Positions 29,108 through 44,900 of a DNA stretch of 64,000 bases are shown piece after piece. Each line of letters starts with the position of its first letter. Within the stretch, counting starts at the first letter, position 1. Under the pieces are notes generated by a model that was not told where the DNA came from, did not search any database, and was given only the letters and a program-made list of their open reading frames with translations. The stretch is from Candidatus Rifleibacteriota bacterium. GTDB lineage: Bacteria; Muiribacteriota; Ozemobacteria; Ozemobacterales; Ozemobacteraceae. The position numbers and the translations under genes are program-made. Location: the NCBI GenBank assembly GCA_012517355.1, contig JAAYVD010000050.1, forward strand, positions 23,350 through 87,349, written 5' to 3'.

Positions 29108-29563
29108 TGTCAGGCCCTCCTTTCCAGAATCGTTCACCGGAATCGATCACCCCTGTTGACCGCCACATCGCGAGAAAGGTTCCCGGAAAGTTCACGGCCT
29201 GCCGGAAACCCCCGGAAACCCCCGCCGCGTCTTTTCTGGAGACTTCAGCATTTCGACGGAAACCTCGAAAGCTGCAGGGGAAAGGGAGAAAGGGGGGAAA
29301 TGGCGAAGGGAGTCGCCAGCACGATCTGCGCAATCAGCATCGATGGGTGGATGAAGAACGTGGTTTCCCAGGCCCGAAAAGGGTTCCGGGGGCTCTGCCA
29401 GCGGTGAAATGAAGGGCAAAGCCCCTTCGGCAGGCATGGTCGGGGATCGACCTCTTTTTTCCCTTCCACCCCTGTGATAGAGTGTCCTCCGTCGGTCTCC
29501 GGCAGGGCCACCCCCACCGGAACCAGCGGTCACCAACCCGCATTCCACCTGGGAGGATCACCC

Positions 29564-32500
29564 ATGGCTCGTTCCTTCGCCGGTCACCCCCTGCGCCTGT
29601 TCCTCGTCGGCCTGATCGCCGTCCTGTCCGCTTTGTCCGTGATCGTCGGCTGCGGCGGGGGCGGCGGGGGCAACACCGATGCCTTCACCACCGGCGCGAC
29701 GGTCGCCCTCACCGGCCTCGTCACCCGCGAAGGCGCGACCACGTCGGTGCGCGGATCAGGAGCCATCCGGGGTTCCCCGGTGGCCGGGGCGGAGGTCTAC
29801 ATCCAGGAGGATCCTTTGCGCCGGAGCACCACCGACAGCGAGGGCCGCTACCGGTTGCTCGACCTCCCCGTCAGTCTCGCTCGCTTCAACGTGGTGGCCA
29901 GTTGGACCGAAGGCGGCACCGTCTGGAAGAACCGCACGCCGGTAACCAATACCGGGGTCAGTTCCGAACTGACCGGGGACGTGAAGGTCGAACAGGCCAC
30001 CGCCCGCGTGGAGGGCCGCCTGCTCGACGCCAACGGCAATCCCCTGGCGGAAGGCACCATCCTGACCCTGTGGGGCGAAATCTTCCGGGTCCTCACCGAC
30101 GGGCGGTTCGTTTCCCCGCCGCTCCCACCATCGGCCGCGACCGCCGAGATCACCTTCGCCGGAGACGCCGGCCAGGCCCCGGCCACCATGACCGCCCCGC
30201 TCACCACGGGTGACCTGCCCGCCATCATCGAAGTGCAGCTGGTCAGCCGCACCGCGCCGCCCAATGCCCCGCCGTCCGCTCTGCTCACCGCCAAAGTGAG
30301 CGGTCAGGAGGTCACCAAGGTGGCCCCCAAGGCCCAGGTCAGCCTGGCCCTGCAGGTGATCGACCCCGATCCCAACCACGCCACCCTCGCCACCAACGTC
30401 TGGACGAAGACCCGCGGCGAGCTCGCCCAGACCGCGAATGTCCTCACCAACACCTGGACCGCCCCCGACCTGCCGGGGCAGGCCACCATCACCGTCCGCG
30501 TCACCGACCCGCTCGGGGCCGTCGCCACCGCCCAGCTGCGGCTGGTGATCGAAGGCGCCTTGACCGCCACGAAGGAGATCACCGCCTTCCGCTTCCCCGC
30601 CGGCACCCTGAATTCCGGCCTCGCCACCGACGCCGTGGCCATCATCGGCGGCACCGCCATCCAGCTGCAGGTGCCCAACGGCGTGTCCCGCGTCGGGCTG
30701 ATCCCCGAGATCACGCACACCGGCATCGACGTCGTGCCGCGCTCCGGCATCGGCCAGGACTTCAGCCAGCCGGTCACCTACAAGGTCACCGCCGCCGACT
30801 GGTCGACGAAGGAATTCACCGTCACCGTCAACGAGGGTCCCGACACCACCGCCCCGGCCATCGTCACCCTCACGCCCGCGAACGGCGCCACCACGGCCGC
30901 CCTCGACGCCAACCTCGTCATCACCTTCAACGAGATCATCGCCAAGGGAACCGGCAACCTGGTCATCCGCCAGGCCAGTGACGGGGCCATCCTCGAAACC
31001 ATCGACGTCTCCGCGACCGAGGTGACCGTCAACGGCACCCAGGCCACCATCAACCCCGCCGTCACCTTCTCCCCCTCGGGGACCTACTACGTCGAACTGG
31101 CCCCGGGCGCGTTCAAGGACCTCGCCGGCAACCTGTTCACCGGCATCTCCGGAGCCACCACCTGGCGCTTCTCCACCCCGGCCCCGGCCGACACCACCGC
31201 CCCCACCATCGCCGCCCTCACCCCGGCCGACGACAGCGCCACCGCCGCCCCCGATGCCGACCTGGTCATCGTCTTCAGCGAGAACGTCCTGAAGGGAACC
31301 GGCGCCATCACCGTCCGGAACGACACCGACGGCACCACCCTCGAAACCATCGACGTCACCTCGACCCGCGTCACCATCCGAGACGCCCAGGTCACCATCG
31401 ACCTCTCCCAGACCCTGCTGCCTTCGAAGGCCTTCCACGTAGAGATCGCCGCCACCTGCTTCAAGGATGCCGTCGGCAACGCCTTCGCGGGCATCGCCGA
31501 CTCCACCACCTGGAACTTCTCCACCCCCGCCCCCGCCGACACCACTGCCCCCGCCGTGGCCTCCTTCACCCCGGCCTCCGGGTCGGTCAATGTGGGCGTC
31601 GAGACCAACCTCGCCATCACCTTCACCGAGAACGTCCTGCCCGGAACCGGCAACCTGGTCATCTTCGACGGCCCCACCGGCGCCGTCTTCGAGACCATCG
31701 CCGGCAATTCCGGCCAGGTGACCATCGCCGACCGCCTGGTCACCGTCAACCCCGCGGCCGTCTTCACCTTCGGCCGCCCCTACTACGTCACCATCGCCGC
31801 AGGCTTCGTCCAGGACGCCGCCGGCAACGCCTATCCGGGATACACCGCCACCACCACCTGGTCCTTCACCGCCGCCGCGGCCCCCGACACCACCGCCCCC
31901 ACCCTCCAGTCTCTCTCCCCGGCCGACAACGCCACCACCGTCGCCACCGACGCCAACCTCGTCCTCACCTTCACCGAGAGCGTCACGAAGAAGACCGGAA
32001 CCATCGTCATCCACGACGACACGGCCGGCACCGTCTTCGAGAACATCGACGTCACTTCCGGCCTGGTGACCGTGTCCGGGAACCTGGTCACCATCAATCC
32101 CGCCGGGGTCTTCACGGCGGGCCGCTCCTACCACGTGACCGTCGCCGCCACCTGCTTCGTCGACGCCGCCAACAACGCGTTCGCCGGCATCACCGACGCC
32201 ACCACCTGGAACTTCTCGGTGCCCGTGCCCCCCGACACCACCGCCCCCGCCGTGGCCTCCTTCAGCCCGGTCAACGGCGCCACCAACGTGGCGGTCGGTT
32301 CCGACCTCGTCGTCACCTTCAACGAGACCGTCGTGAAGGGAACCGGCAACATCCTGATCAGGAACGATACGGACGGCACCACCTTCGAGACCATCGACGT
32401 GGCCGGCGGCCTGGTGACGGTCTCCGGCGCCCAGGTCACCATCAACCCCGCGGGCACGCTCACCGCCAGCAAGACCTTCCACGTCGAGATCGCCGCCACC

Positions 32501-34963
32501 TGCTTCAAGGACGCCGCCAACAACGCCTTCCCCGGCTTCACCTCGGCCGCCGTCTGGTCCTTCGCGACGCCGGCCCCCACCGACACCACCCCGCCCACCG
32601 TCTCCGTCCTTTCCCCACCCGACGGCGCCACCACCGTGGCCACCGACGCCAACCTCGTCCTCACCTTCAGCGAGAACGTGGTGAAGGGAACCGGCAATCT
32701 CGTCATCAAAAACGATTCCGACGGCACCATCTTCGAGACCATCGACGTCACCTCCGGCCTCGTGACCGTGTCCGGCAACCAGGTCACCGTCAACCCCGCC
32801 GGCACCTTCGCCCCAAGCAAGAACTGGCACGTCGAGATCGCCGCCACCTGCTTCAAGGATGCCGCCAACAACGCGTTCGCCGGCATCACCGACGCCACCA
32901 CCTGGAACTTCTCGACCCCGGCCCCCGCCGACACCACCGCCCCCACGGTGACCGCGTTCTCCCCGCTCGACGGCGCCACCAGCGTGCCCGCCGGCACCAA
33001 CCTGGTCATCACCTTCAGCGAGAACGTCGTCAAGGGAACCGGCAACCTCGTCATCAGGAACGATTCCGACGGCACCACCTTCGAGACGATCGACGTGACC
33101 GCGGCCAACGTCACCGTCTCGGCCAACCAGGTGACGATCGACCCGGCCGGCACCCTCGGCAGCCTGAAGAACTACCACGTCGAGATCGCCGCCACCTGCT
33201 TCCGCGACGCCGCCGGCAACCCCTTCGCCGGCATCGCCAACGCCACCACCTGGAACTTCTCCTCGCGCGGCGAGATCGACCAGGCCGCCGACCTGCTGAT
33301 CACCGAAGTCAGCACGCGGTTCTACTCCAACGTGCCTCTGTTCATCGAGGTCTACAACGACACCGACGGGACCCTCCAGTTGGCCGACTATTCCCTGCGG
33401 TGCTGGTCCCTCCCCTCGGGTGGAGGCGTGCCCGCCCCCAGGACCTACACCCTGCCCTCCCTGTCCATCGCCCCCCGCACCTTCGCCCTCCTGGTCACCA
33501 ACGTCACCACCAACCAGTTCGCCACCTCCCGGTCGGTGCTGATCAACCCCACCGCCGACGGCTATCTGCCCTACTGGGCGGGCGACGGATTCGTCGAACT
33601 GGTCAAGGCCGGCCAGACCACCGACTTCGTCCGGTTCGGCACCAATTCCACCCCCCCGACCACCGGCACCTGGGGAACCAACGCCCCCGCCCTCGAGTCG
33701 GGCACCGACGGCGTCTACGGCAAATCCCTCCAGCGCGCCCGCAGCCTGGCCGACACCGACACCGGCACCGACTGGACCTTCCGCCAGTATGCCACCCCGG
33801 CCGGCCCCAACGACGTGCTCTCCGACACCGACCTCGACCTCGACGGCATCCCCGATTCCTGCGAAGCGCCCGGCCAGACCTACGTCGGCCTGCCCCTCTA
33901 CGACTGGGGCGCCCGCACCAACCAGAAGGACCTGTTCATCCACGTCGCCCACATGGATTCCACCGACCCCGGCGTCACGCCCCGCAAGGAAGCCCTGGCC
34001 AAGGTCGCCGCGGCGTTCGCCCCCCACGGCTTCGTCCTGCACTTCGATGCCGGCACCCTTTACGGGTCGACCCCGGCCGACTACAACCTCGACAACACCT
34101 CCCACCGGATCCCGCTGTCGACGAAGATGACCTTGAGCACCGTCACCGGCTCGGCCAATCTCTACGAGGTCAAGGCGCAATCCATCGACCTGGCCAAGCG
34201 GCACGTCTTCTATTTCTGCGTCTTCGCCTACGAGGAATACTACGGCGCCGCGGGCAAGGGCGAGGTCAACGGCAACGACTTCCTCGTCGCCCTCGGCAAC
34301 AACGGCCTGAAAACCACCCCGGGCGAGGACCTCACCTACCTGATCAACCAGCAGGCTTCGACCCTGATGCACGAGTTCGGCCACAATCTCGGCCTGCGCC
34401 ACGGCGGCGGAGAAGAGGTCAACTACAAGCCCAACTACCGGTCGATCATGAACTACCTCTACTCGAACTACGGCCTTCCCCAGATCGGTAACGTCCGCGA
34501 AGGAGATCGCTACTACCACGAAAAGTGGTATCTCGCCGGCTTCCCCCGCCCCGGCGCCTTCTCCCAGTATTTCCCCAGCGGCACCAAGGACCTCCACAAC
34601 AACCCCTGGAGCGCCTCGTTCACCATGGACTTCTCCGAAGGGAAGGGCGGCACCCTCAACGAGGCCAGCCTGAACGAGCCGGCCGGCCTGCTCTACCCGG
34701 GCAGCACGGGCGTCGACTGGAACGGCGACATGGTCACCACCTCGACCGGCCTCGCGCTGGACGTCAACTTCAGCAGCAACTCCATCGAGTCCTACGGCGA
34801 TTACAACGACTGGGCCAACCTCGCCATCGTCTTCGCCCGCAAGACCGCCGGGGTCTCGAACGCCCCGGGCGGCTCCGAGCCGCGCCCCTATGTGTTCGCC
34901 ATCGACGACTGCCAGGAGGTGGCCACCGAGACCCCGCGCCTCCTGCCCCACCAGATGCCCTGA
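29564..34963 (+). CDS. Large surface lipoprotein, about 1800 aa: about 8 tandem Ig-like (SbsA/Big_5-type) repeats, a lamin-tail domain (LTD) and a C-terminal metzincin zinc metalloprotease domain.
   Basis: ATG at 29564 is 7 nt after GGGAGG. Lipobox-like LSALSVIVGC followed by a poly-Gly stretch. Repeats of about 100 aa: DTTAPxVxSxSPxxGATxVxxDxNLVxTFSExVVKGTGNLVIRNDxDGTxFETIDVTS...NPAGTxxxxKxYHVEIAATCFKDAAxNAFAGI. LTD: LLITEVSTRFYSNVPLFIEVYNDTDGTLQLADYSL. Protease: HEFGHNLGLRHGG (HExxHxxGxxH) with a downstream SIMNY Met-turn. Confidence 0.8.
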   Translation: MARSFAGHPLRLFLVGLIAVLSALSVIVGCGGGGGGNTDAFTTGATVALTGLVTREGATTSVRGSGAIRGSPVAGAEVYIQEDPLRRSTTDSEGRYRLLDLPVSLARFNVVASWTEGGTVWKNRTPVTNTGVSSELTGDVKVEQATARVEGRLLDANGNPLAEGTILTLWGEIFRVLTDGRFVSPPLPPSAATAEITFAGDAGQAPATMTAPLTTGDLPAIIEVQLVSRTAPPNAPPSALLTAKVSGQEVTKVAPKAQVSLALQVIDPDPNHATLATNVWTKTRGELAQTANVLTNTWTAPDLPGQATITVRVTDPLGAVATAQLRLVIEGALTATKEITAFRFPAGTLNSGLATDAVAIIGGTAIQLQVPNGVSRVGLIPEITHTGIDVVPRSGIGQDFSQPVTYKVTAADWSTKEFTVTVNEGPDTTAPAIVTLTPANGATTAALDANLVITFNEIIAKGTGNLVIRQASDGAILETIDVSATEVTVNGTQATINPAVTFSPSGTYYVELAPGAFKDLAGNLFTGISGATTWRFSTPAPADTTAPTIAALTPADDSATAAPDADLVIVFSENVLKGTGAITVRNDTDGTTLETIDVTSTRVTIRDAQVTIDLSQTLLPSKAFHVEIAATCFKDAVGNAFAGIADSTTWNFSTPAPADTTAPAVASFTPASGSVNVGVETNLAITFTENVLPGTGNLVIFDGPTGAVFETIAGNSGQVTIADRLVTVNPAAVFTFGRPYYVTIAAGFVQDAAGNAYPGYTATTTWSFTAAAAPDTTAPTLQSLSPADNATTVATDANLVLTFTESVTKKTGTIVIHDDTAGTVFENIDVTSGLVTVSGNLVTINPAGVFTAGRSYHVTVAATCFVDAANNAFAGITDATTWNFSVPVPPDTTAPAVASFSPVNGATNVAVGSDLVVTFNETVVKGTGNILIRNDTDGTTFETIDVAGGLVTVSGAQVTINPAGTLTASKTFHVEIAATCFKDAANNAFPGFTSAAVWSFATPAPTDTTPPTVSVLSPPDGATTVATDANLVLTFSENVVKGTGNLVIKNDSDGTIFETIDVTSGLVTVSGNQVTVNPAGTFAPSKNWHVEIAATCFKDAANNAFAGITDATTWNFSTPAPADTTAPTVTAFSPLDGATSVPAGTNLVITFSENVVKGTGNLVIRNDSDGTTFETIDVTAANVTVSANQVTIDPAGTLGSLKNYHVEIAATCFRDAAGNPFAGIANATTWNFSSRGEIDQAADLLITEVSTRFYSNVPLFIEVYNDTDGTLQLADYSLRCWSLPSGGGVPAPRTYTLPSLSIAPRTFALLVTNVTTNQFATSRSVLINPTADGYLPYWAGDGFVELVKAGQTTDFVRFGTNSTPPTTGTWGTNAPALESGTDGVYGKSLQRARSLADTDTGTDWTFRQYATPAGPNDVLSDTDLDLDGIPDSCEAPGQTYVGLPLYDWGARTNQKDLFIHVAHMDSTDPGVTPRKEALAKVAAAFAPHGFVLHFDAGTLYGSTPADYNLDNTSHRIPLSTKMTLSTVTGSANLYEVKAQSIDLAKRHVFYFCVFAYEEYYGAAGKGEVNGNDFLVALGNNGLKTTPGEDLTYLINQQASTLMHEFGHNLGLRHGGGEEVNYKPNYRSIMNYLYSNYGLPQIGNVREGDRYYHEKWYLAGFPRPGAFSQYFPSGTKDLHNNPWSASFTMDFSEGKGGTLNEASLNEPAGLLYPGSTGVDWNGDMVTTSTGLALDVNFSSNSIESYGDYNDWANLAIVFARKTAGVSNAPGGSEPRPYVFAIDDCQEVATETPRLLPHQMP

Positions 34964-35235
34964 CCCTGGCCGGCCCCCCAGCGACGCCCGCCTCCGACCT
35001 GGAGGCGGGCGTCGCCCTTTGCCGCTCGTCGCGATACCTGGACCCCGAAATCACGCCGCCCGGATCCTCCAGGCCGACCGGTGGTGGCCGATTCCCACCA
35101 GGGCCGACCGCCAGGATGCCCCCTCGGCTGATCCACGTCCAGCCACGCTCATTCACGGCGAGGCGGCAAAGGGGAAGCCCTTCCGACCTCGTGTCGGTCG
35201 GGTGCGGGAAAGGAAAGGAGGGACCCGGCGGCCCC

Positions 35236-36201
35236 CTACCCCTTGGCTGTGGCGGAGGCGGAAGCGGGAGCGTTCTTCAGCGTGCCCTCGACGGAGCGAA
35301 CCGCCAGGTCGAGCAGCCGCTTGATCTCCGAGGCGCTGGTCTGGTAGCCGCCGTGCTTGTTGGCGAACTGCCGGATGACCAGGATGTTGACGTCCTTGTC
35401 GGTCTTGCGTTCGACGACGTCGCGATCGCCGGCCGCTGGCTGGAAGATCGGCAGCGACGGTCGGGTGATGACCACGAAGTAGAGATACGGCCCGCCGCGG
35501 TTGATGGCCACCTGGGCCTGCACGCCCAGCAGTTCCTTGGGGGCATCGGGTGGTTTGATCATCAGCTTGAGATCGGTCGGCACCTCTCCCTTGTCGGTCT
35601 TGGCCAGTTCGAGCTGGTATTCCCGGCTCCATTTCCCCAGGCCCAATGCGGGAAAACCGGCCAGCAGGGCTTCGAACACGGGCAGTTTGAACTCGACCAG
35701 GTGCGGTTTCCAGGTGTTCGGCGCACAGATCCAGAAATACCAGATGCCCAAAAAGACCAGGTCGAGGAAGGCCGTTCCCAGCATCTCTTCTGCGAAGGAA
35801 TTGCCCAGGCCGTCGGACAGGACCCCGACCGTGCCCATCCCCACCACGAAGACCAGCAGGCTGATCCCCAGGTTGAACAGGCCCCACAGGCAGCCGGAGC
35901 CGAGGTTGTCGATGACCTCAATCTTCTTCTTGATCCGGCCGACCTCGGTGGCCGTGACCTGCACCCAGCGCTTGCCCTCCTCGGCTTTCAGCTTCGGAGA
36001 GAGGTTCAGCCGGGGATCGGCTCCCCATCCCTGCGCGTAGCCGTACCAGAACCCCCCGGCGATGACGGCGAGGCCGAGCCAGGCCGACCACTGCATCTGC
36101 ACGAACAGGCCCCCCATCACCACGAGGGTGGGGATCACCACCTCGCGCAGGATGTCGCTTTCAGCGGCGGGGGCAACGGGAGCCGTCTTCGCAGCTTCCA
36201 T
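35236..36201 (-). CDS. Hypothetical polytopic membrane protein, 321 aa. Last gene of the rSAM/SPASM operon.
   Basis: ATG at 36201 is 6 nt after AAGGAGGG. Several TM helices (IPTLVVMGGLFV, LGLAVIAGGFWYGY, LFNLGISLLVFVVGMGTVGV, FLDLVFLGIWYFWI). Overlaps the 3' end of the rSAM gene by 41 nt, suggesting translational coupling. No recognisable family. Confidence 0.5.
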   Translation of the reverse strand: MEAAKTAPVAPAAESDILREVVIPTLVVMGGLFVQMQWSAWLGLAVIAGGFWYGYAQGWGADPRLNLSPKLKAEEGKRWVQVTATEVGRIKKKIEVIDNLGSGCLWGLFNLGISLLVFVVGMGTVGVLSDGLGNSFAEEMLGTAFLDLVFLGIWYFWICAPNTWKPHLVEFKLPVFEALLAGFPALGLGKWSREYQLELAKTDKGEVPTDLKLMIKPPDAPKELLGVQAQVAINRGGPYLYFVVITRPSLPIFQPAAGDRDVVERKTDKDVNILVIRQFANKHGGYQTSASEIKRLLDLAVRSVEGTLKNAPASASATAKG

Positions 36202-37626
36202 GGTTCCCTCCTTGGGATTCTCGGGAGGAATTTCGGGGACCCAAGACCAGATTCTCCGAAATTGGTCTTGTGTTCCCGAAATTCACGTCAGTCGCAGATT
36301 CCGGCTCGGCGGCCGGCGCCACCGGAGCCAGCTCGGCACACCCCATGGCGCGCCAGTAGAGGGGGCACGCCCCCTCGCACAGGTCGAAATGCCCGCAGGT
36401 CCGGCAGGCCGCCGGGGCCTCCTGCTTCTCACGGAGCCGCGTCGCCGACACCGAGTGCCACACCTCGGTGAACGGCTGTTCCAGCAGCGACCCCTGCGGT
36501 TCGAAGAAACTCGAGCAGGGAATCACCCGCCCCCGCGGATCGACGCTCAACAGTCCGTCACAGGCCGCGCACCCCTTGTTGCCGAGATTGTGGGCGATCG
36601 GGTTGAACAGGCAGTACGGCGTCGGCGAATACCACATGAACCGGATGCCGAGATCGCGGGCGACCGCCTTCACGCGCAGGACGGTCGGGCCGATCTCGCG
36701 GTAGGTCAGCAGCAGCCCTGGCTGGGCTTCCCGCATCCAGGCCGCCGGGATGACCATGTTCATCGAGAACCGGTCGAGGCCCAGGCTCCTGGCCAGGGCC
36801 GGCAGGCGGTCGGCGGCCGCCACGTTGAACCCGGTCAGCGTGGTGTTGGTATGCACCGGCAGTCCCGCCGCCAGGCAGGCCTGCACGGCCGCCACCGTCG
36901 CCGCGAACGACCCCGGCACCCCGGTCAGGCCGTCGTGGATGGCCGCTTCCGGGCCCTCCAGGCTGATCTGCGCCGAGTCGAGGCCGGCCGCCACCAGGGC
37001 GGCCACCAGCGCGGGGGTCAGCCGCAACCCGTTGCTGATCAGGTTGACCCGCAACCCCAGCCGCACCCCCTCCGCGACCAGTTCGGGCAGGTCGTCGCGC
37101 AGGGTCGGCTCCCCGCCGGTGAACGAGACCGACGGCACCTGCGCCTCGTGCCGGATGATCTGGAGCACCCGCTTCACCTCGGCGGTGGTCATCTGGATGG
37201 CGGTGTCCCCGTCCCGGTGCTGGCCGGCGTAGCAGAACCGGCAGGCCAGGTTGCACCGGTAGGTCAGGGCCACCTCGGAAATGATCGGCAGCTTGATGTA
37301 GGGCCGTCGGTAGGGAATGGCCTCGACCTCCGGCCGGCCCCGGCCTTCCCCCAGGCATCCCTTCACCATCGCCACGATGCCGGTGAAAAACTGGAACAGG
37401 TCCCGCCGGACGTGCGGCGGCGGCTGCCGCCCGCCCAGGGCCTGGTCGAGCGTGCGACCGTCGAGCAGGGCCCGCATCAGCTTCATGCCGCTGCGATTCA
37501 GTTTGTACGATTGGTTGGGAACCAGGATCAACAATTCGTCATACTCCCGCAGGAAGACGAAAGACTTGATCTCGCCGATGAACCGGTCGACCCAGTCGAG
37601 GGGAAACTCCTGCTCAGGCGTGGGCA
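36161..37626 (-). CDS. Radical SAM/SPASM-domain maturase with an N-terminal PqqD-like RiPP-recognition element (RRE), 488 aa.
   Basis: N-terminal FVFLREYDELLILVPNQSYKLNRSGMKLMRALLDGRTLDQAL...VRRDLFQFFTGIVAMV matches the PqqD/RRE pattern. Radical SAM LTYRCNLACRFCYAG with FTGGEPTL. SPASM region CAACDGLLSVDPRGRVIPCSSFF...CRTCGHFDLCEGACP. Start ATG at 37626. Confidence 0.85.
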
Positions 37627-37816
37627 TACCCCCACCCGCCTGGCCTGGACGACCTGGCCCGGAGGCCCCGACCGCCCCGAAGTCATCGGAAAGGCCCGCT
37701 TCGGCGCCCGCGCCCGTGATGGTCGCTGCCGTCGAAGCCTCTGCGGCAGGCCGGTCAGCGGAAGCGGCGCAACCCTCCTCCATCTGTGGCCGCTCGCAGC
37801 CCGGCTTGGCTGCCGG

Positions 37817-37945
37817 GGAATTCCGGGGACATGATACCGAATTCCAGGAATTCCGGGGACATGATACCGAACTTCCTGAATTCGATATCATGTCCCCGGA
37901 ATGCTCGGAATGCCCGGAATGCTTGGGGCCCCCATCGGGCCTGTG
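37817..37945. repeat. Lower-GC intergenic repeat cluster: a 25-bp direct repeat x2 (GGAATTCCGGGGACATGATACCGAA), a 17-bp-arm inverted repeat (ATTCCGGGGACATGATA ... TATCATGTCCCCGGAAT) and a 3x GGAATGC tandem. Lies between the Cys/His-repeat coding end and the rSAM/SPASM gene.
   Basis: Read directly at 37817-37841 and 37848-37872 (direct repeats), 37850-37866 versus 37888-37904 (inverted repeat, about 21-nt loop), and 37895-37930 (GGAATGC repeats). Local GC is clearly below the window average. Confidence 0.7.
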
Positions 37946-38109
37946 CGTCACACCCGCCTGGCGGCGGGCGGGACCGGTTTCGCCGACCGGCGCCGTATCG
38001 CCCAGGCCCGGCCCTTCGCCACCGGCCGGTTCGCGGGCGAGGGATGTCGTCGGACCCCTGATCGGCTCCCCCGGCCGTTGTCCGGCAGGGATTTCCGGCG
38101 ACTGTTCGC

Positions 38110-38280
38110 TCACCGGGCCCTCCCCGACACGCAGGCGCTGTGGCACGCGCTGTGGCAGGCACTGTGACAGGCGCTGTGGCACGCGCTGTGACACGCGCTG
38201 TGACAGGCGTCGTGGCAGGCGGTGTGCACGTAGCAGGCCGCGTGGCAGGCATCCGACTTGACCAGGTCGCCCAGGCTCAT
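38110..38280 (-). other. Candidate precursor-like segment (internal Met at 38280): MSLGDLVKSD followed by ten C-H-x-A repeats (ACHAACYVHTACHDACHSACHSACHSACHSACHSACHSACVSGRAR). It is the C-terminal tail of CDS 38110..39954 in the same frame.
   Basis: 12-bp tandem DNA repeat (GCSTGYCACAGY, about 8 units) at 38140-38250 on the minus strand. 10 Cys and 9 His in 40 residues. Lies immediately upstream (in the direction of transcription) of the RRE-rSAM/SPASM gene. Whether it is translated separately is not determinable from sequence. Confidence 0.35.
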
Positions 38281-39954
38281 CGTCTGCTCGACCCCGCTCA
38301 CCTGGCCGATGGTGGGCTCGAGCTCGCCGACGCGGTCGTCGAACCGGTTCCCCGGGACGGTCGCGAGCGGGCCCGGGCCGGGCCGGCCGTGCAGATGGGA
38401 ATGCTGGTGGTGATGATACCAGGACGAAACGTACGACCGCCGGTAGTACCGCCGCCGGTAGACCGGGTAGCCCGACTCGTCGACGGTTTCGGCCGGTTCC
38501 GGCTCCTGCGCGGCCCGGGCAAACTCGGCCCGGTAGTGGGCCTTGGTGGCCTCCGCGTCGCAGTCCCACATCTTGGTCTGGATCGAGTCGACCAGCTTGT
38601 AGAAGATCGCCTTGGCCGTCTCGGGCAGGATCGACCCGTCGTCACCCACCGACTGGATCAGGAGGTTCTCGTAAGGGTCCTCGCTGGTGGGGTGGGGCGT
38701 GAGGAACTTGACGCGGACGGGCTGGGTCGAGGTGATCGACAGCACCCCGTTCTGCTCGAGGCTGGCCAGGATGCACGCCAGCAGCCGCGTGACGGGGTAG
38801 TCGAGCAGCATCATCGCCTCGAGCACCGTCAGCTCGGCCACCTTCCCGTTCTTGCGGAAGCTGGCCACCTGGATCTTCGGCGGCTCCCAGTTTTCCCCCT
38901 CCCACGACAGGTCGGGCACCTTGGCCACCTCGGCCGTCGCCGTGCGCCGTTTGAACCGCAGCAGGAGCAGGGTCAGGCCCATGAACCCGCCCATCACCAG
39001 GAACAGCAGGACCTTCTGCCCGCCGGGCCGGGCGGCCCCGGTCTCCCCGGCCTTCGCCCCATACGACCGGTCGGGCAACGGGCTCTTCTTCCCCGGAACC
39101 GGCCCCGGGCGGCTTTCTTCGGCCTTGAACGTGAAGCCGGTGAACACCTTCCGCGGAAAATACTGCTGAACGCGGATCGCCTCCTGTGAGGGGACGTTCT
39201 CGCGGTGCAGCAGCTGGGTCAGCCAGAACTTCCCGCCGTCACCGCGCTGGCCGCGGTAATCGATCTTGTACGTCGTGTTCATGAACGGCTCGGTCTGGAT
39301 GGTCTGCCGCCATTTCTCCGCATCGATCGCAGCGCCTGAGACTTCCAGAGGCAGGTGCAGGTACACGGTTCGGTGCTCGAGCGGCTCGTCCCAGGCGGGG
39401 TCGGCCCAGTTGAGATAGACCAGTTCCGACTTGTCCTTTTCGGAGCGGGTAATGCCGAGATGCCCCGAGGCCAGCAGGTTGACGGTGTAGGTCAGCACCC
39501 AGGTGGCGGTCTCGCCGGCCGGAATGCGCGCCCCGACCACGTCGACCGCCCACAGGTTGCCCTGCTGCACCACCTTGACCGGCTGGCTGTCCCGGTTCTG
39601 CCGCAGCACCAGGCACTTGTCGGCCTCGAACACCGGGGTGCCAGCCACCCCCATGTAGTCGAGCCCGCCCATGCTCTCGCTTTGAACCGACACCCGGATC
39701 TTGGTCACCACGATGGCATGCCCGTTCCCGGTCAGCGACAGGTCGGTCTCGATCCATTGGAAGTCCACGCGCGGCGCGGCCGCCAGCGACCCGCTGCCCG
39801 CCACCGCCAGGACGAGGGTGAGGGCCGCCAGGACGAGCAGACCGCGCACCCCACCCGGAGCCCGGATCGGCGGGGATGCCCATCGGGCCGAAACCGGCCC
39901 GGCAGACCGGAGCACGCGGGGATCTCCCGCGACGACGGAAACAGGGTGACCCAT
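38110..39954 (-). CDS. DUF2207-like membrane protein (signal/TM, extracytoplasmic beta-rich domain, single TM, cytoplasmic domain) with a Tyr/Arg/His-rich segment and a C-terminal (C-H-x-A)x10 repeat tail, 614 aa.
   Basis: ATG at 39954 is 7 nt after GGGAGG (...EVHMGHPVSVV). Hydrophobic leader VRGLLVLAALTLVLAVAG. Central TM VLLFLVMGGFMGLTLLLL. Tail ...YRRRYYRRSYVSSWYHHHQHSHLHG...MSLGDLVKSDACHAAC...HSACHSAC. The DUF2207 assignment rests on architecture only. Confidence 0.55.
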   Translation of the reverse strand: MGHPVSVVAGDPRVLRSAGPVSARWASPPIRAPGGVRGLLVLAALTLVLAVAGSGSLAAAPRVDFQWIETDLSLTGNGHAIVVTKIRVSVQSESMGGLDYMGVAGTPVFEADKCLVLRQNRDSQPVKVVQQGNLWAVDVVGARIPAGETATWVLTYTVNLLASGHLGITRSEKDKSELVYLNWADPAWDEPLEHRTVYLHLPLEVSGAAIDAEKWRQTIQTEPFMNTTYKIDYRGQRGDGGKFWLTQLLHRENVPSQEAIRVQQYFPRKVFTGFTFKAEESRPGPVPGKKSPLPDRSYGAKAGETGAARPGGQKVLLFLVMGGFMGLTLLLLRFKRRTATAEVAKVPDLSWEGENWEPPKIQVASFRKNGKVAELTVLEAMMLLDYPVTRLLACILASLEQNGVLSITSTQPVRVKFLTPHPTSEDPYENLLIQSVGDDGSILPETAKAIFYKLVDSIQTKMWDCDAEATKAHYRAEFARAAQEPEPAETVDESGYPVYRRRYYRRSYVSSWYHHHQHSHLHGRPGPGPLATVPGNRFDDRVGELEPTIGQVSGVEQTMSLGDLVKSDACHAACYVHTACHDACHSACHSACHSACHSACHSACHSACVSGRAR

Positions 39955-40112
39955 GTGAACCTCCCAGGCTGCGCTCCCCCCCAGTCCCGACCGCGGACCG
40001 TGGAAGGCCGATCGGTCGGGAACGGCTGCCGACCGGGACGGAACCGGCCGACGGGGAACGGTGGCGACGGGCATCGCCGCCCCCTTCACCAGGGGCGGCG
40101 GGGGCGGGAATC

Positions 40113-40505
40113 CTACTCGGCCTTGTTGCTCTCGATGCGGGCCCTGATGAGGTCGGCCTGCGAGGAGATGAACTGGGCGAAGTCGCCCTTGGCGGTGGCC
40201 CAGGCGGGTTCGGCGGGGAAGGTCAGGGCGACCGCCTCCCACAAGTGGGTGTAGACCTTCTCGAGCACCTGTCGCGAATCACCGCCACCGGTGTGCTCGA
40301 AGAACGCCTTGATGGCCACCGGCCGGAAGACCGGCGACGGGGTGTTGGGAATTTCGGTGCTGGCCCCGAGAAACTGCACCTTCATCTCCCCGAACATGTC
40401 GCACCGCTCTTTGATCGCGGTGAGCACCGTGGCGATGGAAAAATCCGCCGAACTGAAGGAGACGGTCAGCAGGTTGTCCTTGATTTCTCCAAATGGCAAA
40501 AACAT
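40113..40505 (-). CDS. Hypothetical protein, 130 aa, first gene of the 40.5-35.2 kb minus-strand gene string.
   Basis: ATG at 40505 is 7 nt after GGGGAGGA. Product MFLPFGEIKDNLLTVSFSSADFSIATVLTAIKERCDMFGEMKVQFLGAST... has no recognisable family. Its stop overlaps the preferred start region of the DUF2207-like gene. Confidence 0.4.
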   Translation of the reverse strand: MFLPFGEIKDNLLTVSFSSADFSIATVLTAIKERCDMFGEMKVQFLGASTEIPNTPSPVFRPVAIKAFFEHTGGGDSRQVLEKVYTHLWEAVALTFPAEPAWATAKGDFAQFISSQADLIRARIESNKAE

Positions 40506-41922: not shown

Positions 41923-44900
41923 GTGGGACTTTTCCTGTTTGTTCCCTTAGCCCCCCTGGTCGCCCTCAATCAATTGTCCCAACCCGCTTTCGACGCGAAC
42001 GGCACCTGGACCTGGGACAACAACATCACCCGGGGAGCTCTCGACACATTTACCAGGAATGCCGGAGGAGGATACTCGGACGCGATTCTCACCTCCAATA
42101 ACACCAGGCGCGATGGCATGCTCCACCAGATCTTCACGACGCCGGCCGCCGGGCCCGTCAACGCCAGGGTGAGAGCGGGTTACCAGACCACCAATACCGC
42201 CGGCTATACCAGTTTCAGCCTGTTGGGAACCGTTCGGGACACCACCTCCGGTGCCTACCCCAACGAAGGGTTGGTCCTCACTTTTCTGAACCGTTCCACC
42301 CTCAATGTCACCGGATGGCAGGCCTCCGGATGGTCCACGGAAAGCCAACTGTCCGCAGGCCGGTCCTACCGGGTCCAGATCTACCACGACATCAATGTGA
42401 CCGGTTTCAACACCAATGTCACGGCCAATATCGATAACGTCTACTGCAACACCAGCCCGGTGAACCTGCGAGCCTCCCGCAGCGGAGCCGATATCGTCCT
42501 GAACTGGGACACCAGCACCGGCGTGGGAACCCTCGCCAATTACCGGGTTTACTACAGCACCACCGGGGTGGCCGGCTCTTTCGTCTGGCTTGCCAACGTG
42601 CCCGCCGGCACCACCAACTACACCCACGTCTCCCCCGGGACGTTATACTATTACGCCGTATCCGACGTAGAAACCGTCACCGGCGACGAATCCCCCCTCT
42701 CCGTGGCGGTCCTTCCCCCCAACATCACCATGGCCGGCGCCAAGAACGTGAACGAGGACACCGACTCGGCCGCGATCACCGACTTCAACTGCACCGGCAG
42801 CGCCGTCTGCTACCCGGTGACCATCGTCCTCACCGTCAGCAACGGCACCCTGACCATGACGAACAACGGGTGCACCACGTTTTCCAACAACGGCACTTCC
42901 CAGGTCACCATCGCAGGGTCCCTGACCGCCCTCAACAATACCCTTGACACCCTCATCTACCGGGGATCCCTGAACTTCTACGGCTCGGACAACCTGAACG
43001 TGAACTTTTCGGGCATCGACATGGGGAACGTGGCCATCACCGTCACGCCGGTCAATGACGCCCCCTCGTTCACCAAGGGGGCCGACCAGACCGCCGAAGA
43101 GAACTCCGGGGCAAAAACCGTGGCCGGATGGGCCACCGCCCTGTCCACCGGGCCGGCCAACGAGTCGTCCCAGTCCATCGCCGGGTTCGTGGTGACCAAC
43201 GACAACAACGCCCTCTTCTCGACCCAGCCCGCCGTCGCCGCCGATGGCACCCTCACCTTCACCCCGGCGGCCTCCGCCAATGGAACCGCCATCGTCACCG
43301 TCCAGGTCCAGGACAACGGAGGGACGGCCAATGGCGGGGTGAACACTTCCGCCGCCCAGACGTTCAGCATCGTCATCTACCACGTGAACAGGGAGCCCTC
43401 CTTCACGAAGGGGGCCGATCAGGTGGTCGCCGAGGATGCCGGCCTCCAGACGGTGGTCGGATGGGCCACCAGCCTGAACCCCGGCCACCCCAGCGAGGGA
43501 GGCCAGGTGCTCGATTTCCTGGTGTCCAACGACAACAACGCCCTGTTCTCCAGCCAACCGGCCATCGCCGCCAACGGCACCCTCACGTTCACCCCCGCCG
43601 CCAACGCGGCCGGGGTCGCTGTCGTCACCGTCCAACTCCACGACAACGGCGGCACCGCCAACGGAGGCGATGATACCTCCCCCGCCCAGACGTTCACCAT
43701 CACCGTGACGGCGGTGAACGATGCCCCCACGATCACCGTTCCCGCCCCCCAATCCGTCTTCAAGAACGGCTCCCTGACCCTGTCCACCGGGAACGGGAAC
43801 CTCATCACCATCGCCGACCCCGATGCCGGCGGCAACCAGATCCAGGTCGGCCTGTCGGTTTCCCAGGGAAAGCTGAAACTCAACGGCACCGGGGGCCTGA
43901 CCATCACCGCGGGCGGCGATGATACCGCCGCCATGACCATCCGAGGAACTCTGGGGAACCTCCAGGCCGCCCTGGATGGCCTCGTCTACACCCCTTCCAC
44001 CGGCTTCACGGGAGCCGACACCCTCGCCGTCCTGCTCGACGACCTCGGCAGCACAGGATCCGGTGGCCCCCTGACCGACAGCGATTCGGTGAGCCTGACC
44101 GTGCTGGTGCCCCCCAACACCGCCCCTCCCACCGGCCTGGAGGCCCTGCCCTCGGGAGGAGGCATCTACCTCGGATGGAACCCCAGTCCTCCCGAGAACG
44201 GCGCTACCGTCGTCAGCTACCTGCTGTACCGCAATCTCACCCCCAACGATCCGGCCGGGGCCACCCTGATCCAGACGCTGCCCGCCGGAACCACCAGCAC
44301 CACCGACACCTGGTTCGGTGACCCCCACTACTACTTCATCCGCGACCTCGATTCGAACGGGCAGACGTCCCCCTACTCCAGCCAGGTGTCGGTCGCCCAG
44401 GCCTTTCCCGTCTACGACGGCTTGCGCGAGGACCTCGACTTTTCCTGGAACCCGGACCGGGTGGAAGTGAACTGGGTCCATCCCAACGTCGACTTCAGCG
44501 GCTACCGCGTGGCGGTGGGCACCACCCCCGGCTCCACCAACGTCCTCGACTGGACGCCGGTCGGCACCACCGACCATGCCACGTTGGCGGTCTCCCCACC
44601 CCTGGCCTCCGGTACGACGTATTTCACCTCGGTCCAGTTGATCGACCCCCTCGGCAACCTTTCGACCCTCTCGACCTCCAACGGATTCACGGTCAGGGGT
44701 GACCAGATCCTGATCGACACTTCGAACACCGGGTATTTCAAGTATGCGCGGGCCCTGGTCAACCTCGATACGACCACCGACCCTGGCTCCCTCCGGCCCA
44801 AGACCTTCGCCGGAGGAGGGCTGTGGCAGTACCGGGTCAAGGTGACCGTGAAAGAACCGGGAGTCACCGCCCGCCTCAACGCCCCCTGCCACGTGACGTT

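What the first reader, a model, noticed from the sequence alone, without database searches (positions are those of the whole stretch)
35236..40505. Candidate undescribed radical-SAM/SPASM modification system acting on a (C-H-x-A)x10 repeat tail
Read directly from the sequence:
- An operon-like minus-strand string: hypothetical 130-aa protein, then a DUF2207-like membrane protein, then a structured repeat/hairpin region, then a radical SAM/SPASM enzyme with an N-terminal PqqD-like RRE, then a membrane protein whose start is overlapped by 41 nt.
- The membrane protein ends in ...MSLGDLVKSD-ACHA-ACYV-HTAC-HDAC-(HSAC)x6-VSGRAR: 10 Cys spaced every 4 residues, each flanked by His, with an in-frame Met 10 residues before the repeats.

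Established background: RRE-containing rSAM/SPASM enzymes are the hallmark maturases of Cys-rich RiPPs (sacti-, ranthi- and SCIFF-type peptides). The same enzyme class also crosslinks Cys residues of a full-size protein, the QhpC gamma subunit, via QhpD.

Inference: the Cys/His repeat is the substrate. It may be translated as a short leader-core peptide from the internal Met, or modified as a protein tail in cis. Possible products are thioether crosslinks or a metal-chelating tail. I am not aware of a described system with a C-H-x-A repeat substrate or with this DUF2207-like fusion partner.
Basis: partly seen in the sequence, partly recalled or inferred. Interest (0 to 1): 0.85.

Follow-up and report, generated by a model that had tools for sequence, protein, structure and literature searches.

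The report
Radical-SAM cassette for Cys-His protein tail
A radical-SAM enzyme gene sits directly after the gene for a large membrane protein whose last ~35 residues are an almost invariant Cys-His-x-Ala repeat, and this pairing recurs in about 20 bacterial lineages with no family name or paper found, so it looks like an undescribed protein-tail modification system.

Summary
The window carries, on the minus strand:
- a 130-aa protein;
- a 614-aa membrane protein ending in ACHAACYVHTA-(CHxA)x7-CVSGRAR;
- a 480-nt spacer with a strong hairpin;
- a radical SAM/SPASM enzyme with an RRE-like N-terminus;
- a 321-aa membrane protein.

Searching from the enzyme, 75 of 77 informative genome loci from about 20 named lineages have the tailed protein directly upstream. 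Searching from the tail motif, 60 of 60 informative metagenome loci have the enzyme directly downstream (median gap 7.5 nt).

In the strict run, Cys, His and Ala are invariant in 553 of 553 units. The tail diverges 4.5% between loci, against 65% for the rest of its protein. Synonymous codon variation excludes a microsatellite artefact.

The internal Met is not conserved, and no protease or exporter is in the cassette. The tail is therefore most likely modified in cis in the cytoplasm, not released as a peptide.

No Pfam or NCBIfam model reaches its cut-off for any of the four proteins beyond the generic radical SAM and SPASM domains, and no paper describes the system. The chemistry is untested; my leading guess is one crosslink per repeat.

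Verdict: a new variant of a known kind, of high interest.

The parts
40113..40505 (-). Accessory gene: 130-aa soluble protein of unknown function. It is present only with 'type A' tails.
   Evidence: ORF. 17 homologues align at 67% mean column identity. It lies directly upstream of the tailed gene in 24 of 83 enzyme-found loci and in 29 of 80 tail-found loci. No Pfam family. Only a faint AhpC-like PDB match, E about 0.4.
38110..39954 (-). Tailed membrane protein, 614 aa plus stop. It is the proposed substrate. An alternative ATG is at 40074.
   Evidence: ORF. The start matches the gene called in the close relative L001. Homologues lie directly upstream of the rSAM gene in 75/77 informative loci. 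phmmer against 1.84 billion representatives finds only 225 relatives.
39787..39852 (-). N-terminal signal or anchor helix of the tailed protein (residues 35-56).
   Evidence: Helix 35-56 in the AlphaFold2 model. Homologues show a basic n-region, a hydrophobic core and AxA-like sites (alignment). Export of the following domain is inferred.
39154..39768 (-). Predicted periplasmic beta-sandwich domain (residues 63-267), distantly DUF2207-N-like.
38926..39015 (-). Transmembrane helix (residues 314-343), followed by a basic stretch (RFKRR).
   Evidence: Helix 314-343 in the model. The positive charges after it are conserved in the family alignment, so the C-terminal part is inferred to be cytoplasmic.
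38506..38826 (-). Cytoplasmic helix/hairpin domain (residues 377-483). It carries conserved motifs such as FRKxGKVA and WDCDLEAT.
38218..38280 (-). Pre-repeat 'leader-like' segment, MSLGDLVKSD-ACHAACYVHTA. It is a candidate RRE recognition element and holds two extra Cys.
   Evidence: Sequence. Three conserved types of this segment exist across lineages (A: SDACHSACYVHTA; B: C(F/Y)EGCF(T/V)H(S/T)A; C: TDHL..DLNV). The Met at 38278-38280 is not conserved.
38131..38217 (-). Strict repeat (C-H-x-A)x7 plus a closing Cys. This is the proposed site of modification.
   Evidence: Tandem Repeats Finder: period 12, 8 copies. C, H and A are invariant in 553 of 553 units; x is S 78%, D 17%, G 4%. x is position-specific: D in unit 1, S in units 3-5, S or G in units 6-7. 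The mean locus has 6.4 distinct 12-nt units but only 2.2 distinct peptide units.
38110..38130 (-). C-terminal cap VSGRAR plus stop. In most lineages it is VSGGAH.
   Evidence: The protein ends 6 residues after the last Cys in 68 of 76 loci and 5 residues after it in 7 more. The last residue is His in 63 of 76.
37816..37906 (-). Long hairpin built from 30-nt direct and inverted repeats, inside a 480-nt spacer. It is specific to this lineage and not part of the conserved system.
   Evidence: Repeats. RNA fold -74 kcal/mol, z = -8.4. Only generic hairpin noise in Rfam. The motif is unique to this spot in the window. A related palindrome sits at the same place in L001. The median spacer elsewhere is 7.5 nt.
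36161..37627 (-). Radical SAM/SPASM enzyme (488 aa). It is the proposed tail-modifying enzyme.
   Evidence: PF04055 1.1e-26 and PF13186 4e-8. 3034 relatives, about 50% identical across lineages. Best PDB relatives are SkfB, PqqE, SuiB, anSME and CteB. No NCBIfam model reaches its cut-off.
37358..37627 (-). N-terminal RRE-like (PqqD-like) domain, residues 1 to about 90.
   Evidence: The model shows a helix, three strands and three helices, with block-mean pLDDT 75-95. Foldseek aligns the full length to the RRE-bearing maturases SkfB and SuiB. PF05402 hits 11 of 18 homologous N-termini, best E 2e-4. The lasso-peptide RRE protein TfuB1 matches at E 0.025.
37232..37255 (-). CX3CX2C motif (C125, C129, C132) for the SAM-cleaving [4Fe-4S] cluster.
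   Evidence: Invariant in the 20-sequence alignment and lies within the PF04055 match.
36338..36613 (-). SPASM region with eight invariant Cys (C339, C353, C356, C371, C408, C411, C417, C421), including CX2CX5CX3C.
   Evidence: Invariant columns. PF13186 matches residues 353-411.
35236..36201 (-). Conserved third gene: 321-aa membrane protein with a C-terminal soluble domain of unknown function.
   Evidence: Homologues follow the rSAM gene in 70 of 83 enzyme-found loci by tblastn (about 78 by clustering) and in 49 of 80 tail-found loci. It has hydrophobic segments and the conserved motif FLGxQxQVSINxVQGxxYPYxYCVLVAK...VIRQxTTKxxGYHT. No Pfam or PDB relative.
35219..35236 (-). Terminator-like stem-loop at the end of the cassette.
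   Evidence: Consensus scan. This is a pattern match only.

Best explanation
This is a self-contained three-gene cassette, with a fourth gene in some lineages.

Components:
- A type-I membrane protein made of an exported beta-sandwich domain, one transmembrane helix and a cytoplasmic domain. It ends in a near-invariant tail, (Cys-His-x-Ala)x7-Cys-Val-Ser-Gly-Gly-Ala-His.
- A radical SAM/SPASM enzyme encoded immediately downstream.
- A further membrane protein after the enzyme gene, and a 130-aa protein before the tailed gene in some lineages.

Proposed mechanism:
1. The enzyme's fused RRE domain docks on the conserved segment just before the repeat.
2. The enzyme modifies the tail post-translationally, in the cytoplasm, while the tail stays attached to the protein.
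3. Most likely chemistry: one radical-initiated intramolecular crosslink per repeat unit. My leading guess is a Cys thioether to a carbon of a residue in the same or adjacent unit. This would give a rigid ladder of small rings that displays the His side chains (and any remaining Cys) for metal or redox chemistry.
4. The downstream membrane protein, and the 130-aa protein where present, are partners that use or assist the matured tail.

Shown: gene content, domain identities, obligate linkage and extreme purifying selection on the tail.
Inferred: the enzyme-substrate relation, the cytoplasmic location, the in-cis mode and the chemistry.
For: 1. Linkage.
- The tailed gene lies directly upstream of the enzyme gene in 75 of 77 informative loci found through the enzyme, from about 20 named lineages.
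- The enzyme gene lies directly downstream in 60 of 60 informative loci found through the tail motif alone, with a median inferred gap of 7.5 nt.
- Nothing else is conserved around them except the third gene and the 130-aa gene.

2. Selection.
- C, H and A are invariant in 553 of 553 units.
- The run holds exactly 8 Cys in 64 of 77 loci.
- The x residue is position-specific.
- Tail divergence is 4.5%, against 65% for the protein body and 49% for the enzyme.
- Codons vary synonymously, and Ser uses both TCN and AGY codons.

3. Enzyme type.
- It has CX3CX2C, a full eight-Cys SPASM region and an RRE-like N-terminus.
- The nearest solved structures are peptide or protein maturases: SkfB, SuiB, PqqE, anSME and CteB.

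4. Precedent.
- PapB installs six thioethers in six CX3D motifs (PMC9413430).
- TvgB modifies each TVGG repeat (PMC9062424).
- QhpD crosslinks Cys within a protein subunit (PMC10114670).

5. In-cis mode.
- The tail is in frame with the large ORF in all 138 loci that carry a tail (137 distinct fetched loci plus this window).
- The internal Met is not conserved.
- There is no protease or transporter in the cassette.
- The basic stretch after the transmembrane helix places the tail in the cytoplasm, where a radical SAM enzyme works.

6. Enzyme and partner divergences correlate, r = 0.78.
Against: - There is no direct evidence of any modification. Everything rests on gene linkage and domain identity.
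- The enzyme's highest NCBIfam scores are to the tetrapyrrole enzymes AhbD and NirJ, as well as to PqqE and MftC. All are far below cut-off and do not discriminate.
- The window protein's own N-terminus gives no PqqD hit; only homologues do.
- Two enzyme-first loci, L033 and L075, form a distinct sub-branch with no tailed gene within the contig.
- Thioether chemistry does not explain why His and Ala are as invariant as Cys.
- Asp or Glu acceptors, used by PapB and QhpD, are mostly absent: x is D in only 17% of units.
- AlphaFold2 gives the tail pLDDT below 50, so no structural support is available.
Confidence: 0.68

Rival explanations
1. The enzyme-substrate pair is the same, but the chemistry is not a thioether. 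Candidates are:
- a His-centred C-C cyclophane over the triad His-x-Ala, as made by three-residue cyclophane-forming rSAM/SPASM enzymes;
- a Cys-His S-C crosslink;
- a side-chain conversion at each repeat, as TvgB performs on Val.
The product would be a protein-derived redox or metal cofactor.
For: - The invariant His, variable x, invariant Ala pattern fits an 'aromatic-X-X' triad in which the middle residue is free.
- With the usual C-terminal His there are 8 Cys and 8 His.
- The enzyme scores as well against the PqqE and MftC cofactor maturases as against any thioether synthase.
- TvgB shows that four-residue repeats can receive a non-crosslink modification (PMC9062424).
- The cyclophane family itself is recalled from my own knowledge and was not tested here.
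Against: - The invariant Cys is then left without a role in the reaction.
- The terminal His is replaced by Arg in this window and in 11 of 76 loci.
- No known cyclophane or cofactor maturase model comes near its cut-off.
- I found no precedent for a radical SAM Cys-His crosslink.
Confidence: 0.2
2. The tail is not a substrate. It is a metal, Fe-S or haem binding element: Cys and His are classical ligands, and CHSACH contains overlapping CX3CH motifs. The radical SAM enzyme acts on another molecule, for example a tetrapyrrole or cofactor, which is then delivered to or used with the membrane protein. Alternatively, the tail serves the enzyme as an electron or cluster donor.
For: - The best NCBIfam scores are to AhbD, NirJ2 and NirJ, which are tetrapyrrole-modifying rSAM/SPASM enzymes.
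- An i/i+4 spacing of Cys and of His suits metal binding on a helix, and the model draws the tail as a helix, though at low confidence.
- No modification has been demonstrated.
Against: - The fused N-terminal domain is RRE/PqqD-like, a peptide-binding module that I recall AhbD and NirJ lack (their domain make-up was not checked here).
- The nearest structures over the full length are the peptide maturases SkfB and SuiB.
- The AhbD and NirJ scores (127 and 103-113 bits) are far below their cut-offs of 500 or more, and are similar to those of the peptide maturases PqqE and MftC.
- Covalent haem c attachment is extracytoplasmic (established knowledge), whereas the tail is predicted to be cytoplasmic.
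- No tetrapyrrole or metal-handling gene is conserved nearby.
- A simple ligand motif would not need a fixed register and fixed copy number across about 20 named lineages.
Confidence: 0.1
3. It is a conventional RiPP. The tail is made as a short leader-core peptide from the internal Met, or is cleaved off the protein. It is then modified and exported as a secreted bioactive peptide.
For: - An in-frame Met lies 10 residues before the repeat in this window and its closest relatives, and in a minority of other loci.
- RRE-rSAM/SPASM enzymes are typical RiPP maturases (PMC10114670).
- Protein-sized leaders exist in some RiPP classes (my own knowledge).
Against: - That position is T, D, S, R, K, E, G or L in most loci, so it cannot be a general start.
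- The tail is always in frame at the end of a 500-700-aa ORF.
- No peptidase, ABC transporter or immunity gene is conserved in the cassette.
- Near-invariance of the core across about 20 named lineages is unlike most RiPP cores, which vary between producers (my own knowledge).
- There is one copy per locus.
Confidence: 0.05
4. The repeat is an assembly artefact or a neutral 12-bp microsatellite that happens to lie at the end of an ORF.
For: Tandem Repeats Finder detects a 12-nt period with 8 copies at 83% matches.
Against: - The same peptide repeat occurs in 137 further distinct loci from independent assemblies and about 20 named lineages.
- Copies differ at synonymous sites: 6.4 distinct 12-nt units but only 2.2 distinct peptide units per locus, and Ser is encoded by both TCN and AGY.
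- Copy number is fixed at 8 Cys in 64 of 77 loci.
Confidence: 0.01

Closest known systems
PapA/PapB (freyrasin, a ranthipeptide)
   Same: An rSAM/SPASM maturase acts on a Cys-containing motif repeated six times with period-like spacing (CX3D). It installs one thioether per motif (PMC9413430).
   Different: - PapA is a short secreted precursor peptide, and the acceptor is Asp or Glu.
- Here the repeat is C-H-x-A with invariant His and Ala and mostly no acidic residue.
- Here the repeat forms the C-terminal tail of a 500-700-aa membrane protein.
- The chemistry here is untested.
QhpC/QhpD (quinohemoprotein amine dehydrogenase gamma subunit and its rSAM/SPASM maturase)
   Same: An rSAM/SPASM enzyme crosslinks Cys residues within a protein that stays part of a functional complex, rather than making a released peptide (PMC10114670).
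   Different: - QhpC is a small soluble subunit exported to the periplasm after modification, with Cys-Asp/Glu links and a quinone cofactor (my own knowledge).
- Here there is no dehydrogenase context.
- The substrate here is a repeat tail on a membrane protein.
- No QhpD-type model is among the top 25 NCBIfam hits.
TvgA/TvgB (poly-cyclopropylglycine peptide)
   Same: An rSAM/SPASM enzyme modifies every unit of a conserved four-residue repeat, TVGG (PMC9062424).
   Different: - TvgA is a stand-alone peptide in a cluster with an oxygenase and transporters.
- The modification is on Val.
- There is no Cys or His.
NCBIfam in-silico systems: TIGR04117 'Cys-Xaa-Xaa-Xaa repeat radical SAM target protein' and TIGR04340 'radical SAM/SPASM domain protein, ACGX system'
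   Same: These are predicted rSAM targets with a Cys every fourth residue. TIGR04117 gives weak hits to 6 of 18 tailed proteins, best E 1.4e-3.
   Different: - Scores are far below cut-off: 13.9 against 50 bits for the tail, and 64.8 against 400 bits for the enzyme against TIGR04340.
- Those families are, from memory, short peptides of narrow distribution.
- Neither has been characterised, to my knowledge.
SkfB, SuiB and CteB (structurally solved RRE-rSAM-SPASM/twitch RiPP maturases)
   Same: Same three-part architecture. They are the best sequence and fold matches: SkfB E 8e-30 and Foldseek E 2e-13, with full-length alignment.
   Different: - Only 16-20% identity.
- Their substrates are short peptides.
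- The family here is about 50% identical across lineages, behaving as a distinct orthologous group with its own invariant residues, for example C91 in a GCLGEG motif.
DUF2207 membrane proteins (PF09972)
   Same: An exported N-terminal beta-sandwich is followed by a membrane anchor and a low-complexity C-terminal tail. PF09972 hits 7 of 18 homologues.
   Different: - The window protein itself does not hit the model.
- Typical DUF2207 proteins pair with LemA (PMC12631010) and, from memory, carry Gly-rich tails.
- No link between DUF2207 and radical SAM was found in the literature.

Membership tests
Radical SAM superfamily (PF04055) | CX3CX2C cluster motif and a match to the core-domain model above its cut-off | tested here: met
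   C125-x3-C129-x2-C132 is invariant. PF04055 scores 94.5 bits against a cut-off of 29.5.
SPASM subfamily (PF13186) | C-terminal extension with the CX2CX5CX3C motif and further Cys for two auxiliary clusters | tested here: met
   PF13186 scores 33.9 bits against 21.5. C408-x2-C411-x5-C417-x3-C421, plus C339, C353, C356 and C371, are all invariant.
RRE / PqqD-like domain (PF05402) | Winged-helix-like fold with a three-stranded sheet and three helices, and a match to the PqqD model | tested here: inconclusive
   - The window N-terminus gives no Pfam hit.
- 11 of 18 homologous N-termini hit PF05402, best E 2e-4.
- TfuB1 matches at E 0.025.
- The model shows strands 25-27, 32-36 and 39-42 and helices 45-55, 60-63 and 71-88.
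- Full-length Foldseek alignment to SkfB and SuiB.
The evidence leans towards met. Peptide binding is not testable here.
RiPP biosynthetic system (classical definition) | Short, separately translated precursor peptide with leader and core, released by proteolysis | tested here: not met
   The core is the C-terminus of a 500-700-aa membrane protein in every locus. The internal Met is not conserved. No peptidase or exporter is conserved.
Sactipeptide / ranthipeptide maturation | Cys S to C-alpha, or to C-beta/C-gamma, thioether bonds in the product | not testable with these tools
   This needs mass spectrometry or NMR of the modified tail. There is only analogy: SkfB is the best PDB hit, and PapB acts on a repeat (PMC9413430).
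NCBIfam TIGR04117 Cys-Xaa-Xaa-Xaa repeat radical SAM target protein | Score at or above the curated cut-off of 50 bits | tested here: not met
   13.9 bits, E 0.044 for the window protein. The best of the 18 homologues reaches E 1.4e-3.
NCBIfam equivalogs for known rSAM/SPASM enzymes (AhbD, PqqE, MftC, NirJ, GeoRSP, ScmE/F, HxsC4, StsB, ACGX, WgkB) | Score at or above each model's curated cut-off | tested here: not met
   The best is AhbD at 127 bits against 500. PqqE scores 114 against 381, MftC 104 against 265, and ACGX 65 against 400. None reaches its cut-off.
DUF2207 (PF09972 N-terminal domain) | Match to the Pfam model | tested here: inconclusive
   No hit for the window protein at E up to 0.1. 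7 of 18 homologues hit, best E 4.6e-5. It is precomputed for P0123. The fold is a beta-sandwich like the Ost1 and M1-aminopeptidase N-domains.
Known anti-phage defence systems (PADLOC) | Specific model match for the cassette proteins | tested here: not met
   Only generic viperin-type radical SAM core hits for the enzyme, and nothing for the other three proteins.

The most novel reading that the evidence does not exclude
The matured (Cys-His-x-Ala)7-Cys tail is a new kind of protein-derived cofactor. It would be a covalently stitched Cys/His ladder, made by radical SAM chemistry not yet described, for example serial Cys-His or His-Ala crosslinks. It would bind a defined chain of metal ions or act as a redox relay at the cytoplasmic face of a transmembrane receptor-like protein. 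Together with the downstream membrane protein, it would form a previously unrecognised membrane module shared by many mostly uncultured lineages (PVC and FCB groups, Armatimonadota, Hydrogenedentota, Riflebacteria and others).
Probability: 0.2. Interest if true: 0.95.

Novelty: new variant of a known kind. Interest (0 to 1): 0.8.

Why it matters
- Radical SAM/SPASM enzymes fused to an RRE are known almost only as makers of small secreted peptides or peptide-derived cofactors. Here the same machinery appears dedicated to the tail of a large membrane protein.
- The target sequence is conserved more strictly (4.5% divergence) than almost anything else in these genomes' accessory gene sets. It spans about 20 named lineages, most of them uncultured.
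- Such conservation points to a defined structural, metal-binding or redox role rather than an arms-race natural product.
- The system offers a clean, testable substrate of about 35 residues with seven identical units, suitable for finding possibly new radical chemistry on Cys, His or Ala.
- It gives a first functional handle on a DUF2207-like membrane protein family and on two protein families with no annotation at all.
- It adds a rare example of RiPP-type modification in cis on a full-size protein.
- The repeat could also be useful as a genetically encoded crosslinked or metal-binding tag.

Tried and rejected
1. Word-indexed protein searches with the tailed protein, with and without its tail, returned only 1 and 3 hits. 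The family is about 33% identical and the index is not sensitive enough. The full phmmer scan and the DNA-pattern scans solved this.
3. An Rfam scan of the region found only generic microRNA-like hairpin noise for the spacer hairpin, all well below the gathering scores. It is not a known RNA family.
4. PADLOC gave no defence-system assignment.
5. Profile searches of the 130-aa and 321-aa proteins against Pfam and PDB found nothing significant.
6. Literature searches found nothing on this system. The terms tried were the repeat strings; rSAM + SPASM + DUF2207; 'CXXX repeat'; Cys-His crosslinks; and membrane or tail terms. Haft & Basu 2011 (PMC3133131) is not held in the library, so I could not check it directly.
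7. A look-up of cluster members to find a cultured carrier returned only MAG-derived, mostly unnamed entries.
8. Considered and rejected: a microsatellite artefact, a peptide initiated at the internal Met, and covalent haem c attachment via CX3CH (wrong compartment). See the rival explanations.

Full report
**What is in the window**

Between 35236 and 40505 the minus strand carries four closely spaced ORFs:
- a 130-aa protein (40113-40505);
- a 614-aa protein (38110-39954; an alternative ATG lies at 40074);
- a 488-aa protein (36161-37627);
- a 321-aa protein (35236-36201), whose start overlaps the preceding stop by 41 nt.

A terminator-like stem-loop follows at 35219-35236.

- The strict period-4 run has seven C-H-x-A units closed by an eighth Cys (38131-38217).
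- Two further Cys lie upstream, out of register by a six-residue step. Eight of the ten Cys are followed by His.

Tandem Repeats Finder sees the 12-nt period.

The 480-nt spacer before the next gene holds a strong hairpin at 37816-37906, built from 30-nt repeats (-74 kcal/mol, z = -8.4). It matches no real Rfam family, and its repeat motif occurs nowhere else in the window.

**The enzyme**

The 488-aa protein is a radical SAM/SPASM enzyme:
- PF04055 scores 94.5 bits and PF13186 33.9 bits, both above Pfam's cut-offs.
- CX3CX2C (C125, C129, C132) and eight SPASM-region Cys, including CX2CX5CX3C (C408-C421), are invariant in 20 homologues.
- No NCBIfam model comes near its cut-off. The best is AhbD at 127 of 500 bits, then PqqE at 114 of 381 and MftC at 104 of 265.
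- By profile search, the closest solved structures are SkfB (8e-30), PqqE, GDGT-MAS, BlsE, SuiB, anSME and CteB.

An AlphaFold2 model (mean pLDDT 76) shows an N-terminal helix, three strands and three helices before the barrel. Foldseek aligns the whole chain to the RRE-bearing maturases SkfB and SuiB.

When only the first ~100 residues of 18 family members are scanned:
- PqqD (PF05402) is hit in 11 of them, best E 2e-4, though not in the window protein.
- The lasso-peptide RRE protein TfuB1 appears at E 0.025.

**The tailed protein**

It gives no Pfam or NCBIfam hit itself. Its AlphaFold2 model shows:
- an N-terminal hydrophobic helix (residues 35-56);
- a confident beta-sandwich (63-267);
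- a linker, then one transmembrane helix (314-343) followed by RFKRR;
- a helical/hairpin domain (377-483);
- low-confidence sequence up to the tail.

Homologues have classical signal-peptide features and the same basic patch after the transmembrane helix. I therefore infer an exported N-domain and a cytoplasmic C-domain and tail.

**Comparative test from the enzyme side**

The enzyme has 3034 detectable relatives. The closest 120 are 49-89% identical and named only 'radical SAM protein'.

A pattern scan of one genome per species confirmed 503 relatives and returned the best 80 loci. They come from Ca. Ozemobacter (Riflebacteria), Planctomycetota, Armatimonadota, Hydrogenedentota, Nitrospiraceae, Acidobacteriota, Kiritimatiellae, Lentisphaerae, Sumerlaeota, WOR-3, Elusimicrobia, Gemmatimonadota, Verrucomicrobia, Omnitrophota, Calditrichaceae, Bacteroidales, Spirochaetes, Abditibacteriota, Auribacterota and others.

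Of the 77 loci with enough upstream sequence, 75 have directly upstream a ~550-aa ORF homologous to the window's protein, ending in ...ACHDAC(HSAC)nVSGGAH.

The two exceptions, L033 and L075, form a distinct enzyme sub-branch. They have unrelated upstream genes and no Cys-repeat anywhere on their short contigs.

Conserved neighbours:
- The 321-aa protein's homologue follows the enzyme in 70-78 loci.
- The 130-aa protein precedes the tailed gene in 24 loci.
- Nothing else is conserved.

**Comparative test from the tail side**

A metagenome scan seeded only by the peptide pattern [SDG]ACH[SDN]ACVS confirmed 561 relatives and kept 80 loci.
- All 60 loci with at least 1.5 kb downstream of the tail carry the enzyme gene immediately after it, with a median inferred gap of 7.5 nt.
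- 16 of the 20 truncated loci show its beginning.

**Selection on the tail**

- In 553 repeat units from 77 loci, Cys, His and Ala are invariant; x is Ser 78%, Asp 17%, Gly 4%.
- The run has exactly eight Cys in 64 of 77 loci.
- x is position-specific: Asp in unit 1 (59 of 63), Ser in units 3-5 (nearly always), Ser or Gly in units 6-7. The chain ends five or six residues after the last Cys in 75 of 76 loci, usually with His.
- At DNA level, a locus has on average 6.4 distinct 12-nt units but only 2.2 distinct peptide units. Ser is encoded by both TCN and AGY codons.
- Mean pairwise divergence is 4.5% for the tail, 65% for the rest of the same protein and 49% for the enzyme. Partner and enzyme distances correlate, r = 0.78.

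These results exclude an assembly or microsatellite artefact. They show that the repeat has a fixed register and length, as expected for a defined structure or product.

**How the tail is delivered**

The Met ten residues before the repeat is present in this lineage and in some others. In most loci it is replaced by T, D, S, R, K, E, G or L. The tail is always in frame with the large ORF, and no peptidase or exporter is conserved. I conclude that the tail is most likely modified while attached, in the cytoplasm.

The segment just upstream of the repeat comes in three conserved types and is the natural candidate for RRE docking:
- A: (S/x)DACHSACYVHTA, which tends to come with the 130-aa gene;
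- B: C(F/Y)EGCF(T/V)H(S/T)A;
- C: TDHL..DLNV.

**Mechanism**

Shown:
- an RRE-rSAM/SPASM enzyme;
- its obligate, tightly spaced pairing with a Cys/His/Ala repeat tail;
- extreme purifying selection on that tail.

Inferred: the enzyme modifies the tail once per unit.

The best precedents are:
- PapB, with six thioethers in six CX3D motifs (PMC9413430);
- QhpD, with Cys crosslinks within a protein subunit (PMC10114670);
- TvgB, with one modification per TVGG unit (PMC9062424).

I put thioether laddering first. However, the equal invariance of His and Ala, and the free middle residue, also fit a His-x-Ala cyclophane or a Cys-His link. Sequence similarity does not discriminate between these.

A non-substrate reading has the tail as a metal, cluster or haem site and the enzyme acting on a tetrapyrrole. 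It is disfavoured by the RRE, by the full-length structural matches, by the cytoplasmic location and by the lack of any associated metal or tetrapyrrole genes.

**Novelty**

- No curated model names any of the four proteins specifically, and PADLOC has nothing.
- The only thematic echo is a far sub-threshold hit to NCBIfam's 'Cys-Xaa-Xaa-Xaa repeat radical SAM target protein'.
- Seven literature searches found no description. Subscription-only papers and Haft & Basu 2011 could not be read.

I classify it as a new variant of a known kind (an rSAM/SPASM-RRE maturase with a repeat substrate). It is distinguished by a full-size membrane-protein substrate, a C-H-x-A unit, two wholly unannotated partner proteins, and unusually broad and strict conservation.

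Noticed in passing
window 37628-38109 (hairpin 37816-37906); L001 7600-7720; L005 4890-6000: In this lineage the tailed gene and the enzyme gene are separated by about 480 nt holding a very stable palindromic hairpin built from GGAATTCCGGGGACATGATA units. L001 has a related palindrome at the same place. L005 (Ca. Ozemobacter sibiricus) has a spacer of about 1.1 kb. Most other lineages have a gap of about 7 nt. It could be a regulatory or attenuator element, or an inserted repeat element.
   Followed up: partly
L033 1-4660 and L075 1-5887: Two enzyme orthologues (48-49% identical, sharing the N-terminus GLPEDFDPDLxWVDEFVAQI) have no tailed gene and no Cys-repeat on their contigs. L075 also lacks the third gene. 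Either the partner is elsewhere in the genome, or this sub-branch has a different substrate.
   Followed up: partly
P0217, P0235, P0131, P0152: Rare tail variants exist:
- CDSS/CHSS units with three-residue spacing (P0217);
- ACVHDACHS units (P0235);
- tails with only two or three units (P0131, P0152).
All still end in ACVS. They could show which features the enzyme really needs.
   Followed up: no
P0002 residues ~160-250 and P0003 (alignment A1 columns 170-260): Two close relatives of the enzyme carry a low-complexity insertion of about 50-90 residues right after the CX3CX2C motif. It is absent from the window protein.
   Followed up: no
L020 3890-5989: Here the 130-aa protein's homologue and the tailed protein appear as one 699-aa ORF. 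This is either a fusion or a frameshift. A real fusion would argue that the 130-aa protein works physically with the tailed protein.
   Followed up: no
window 40113-40505 (-): The 130-aa protein's conserved FSSADFS(V/I)A segment aligns faintly (E about 0.4-1.4) with the active-site region of AhpC peroxiredoxins, but it lacks the Cys. This may be a degenerate thioredoxin-fold protein.
   Followed up: partly
window 29474-34963 (+): A 1829-aa protein has seven Big_5 Ig-like domains (E 1.9e-112), a CopC-like match and a lamin-tail-like match. Its C-terminus carries an HEFGHNLGLRH zinc-metalloprotease motif. It is not conserved next to the cassette elsewhere.
   Followed up: partly
window 41923-52584 (+): A 3553-aa protein has fn3, cadherin-like and MG2 (alpha-2-macroglobulin-type) matches. 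A similar giant MG2-related gene also neighbours the cassette in L001. GC skew is strongly negative across both giant ORFs.
   Followed up: no
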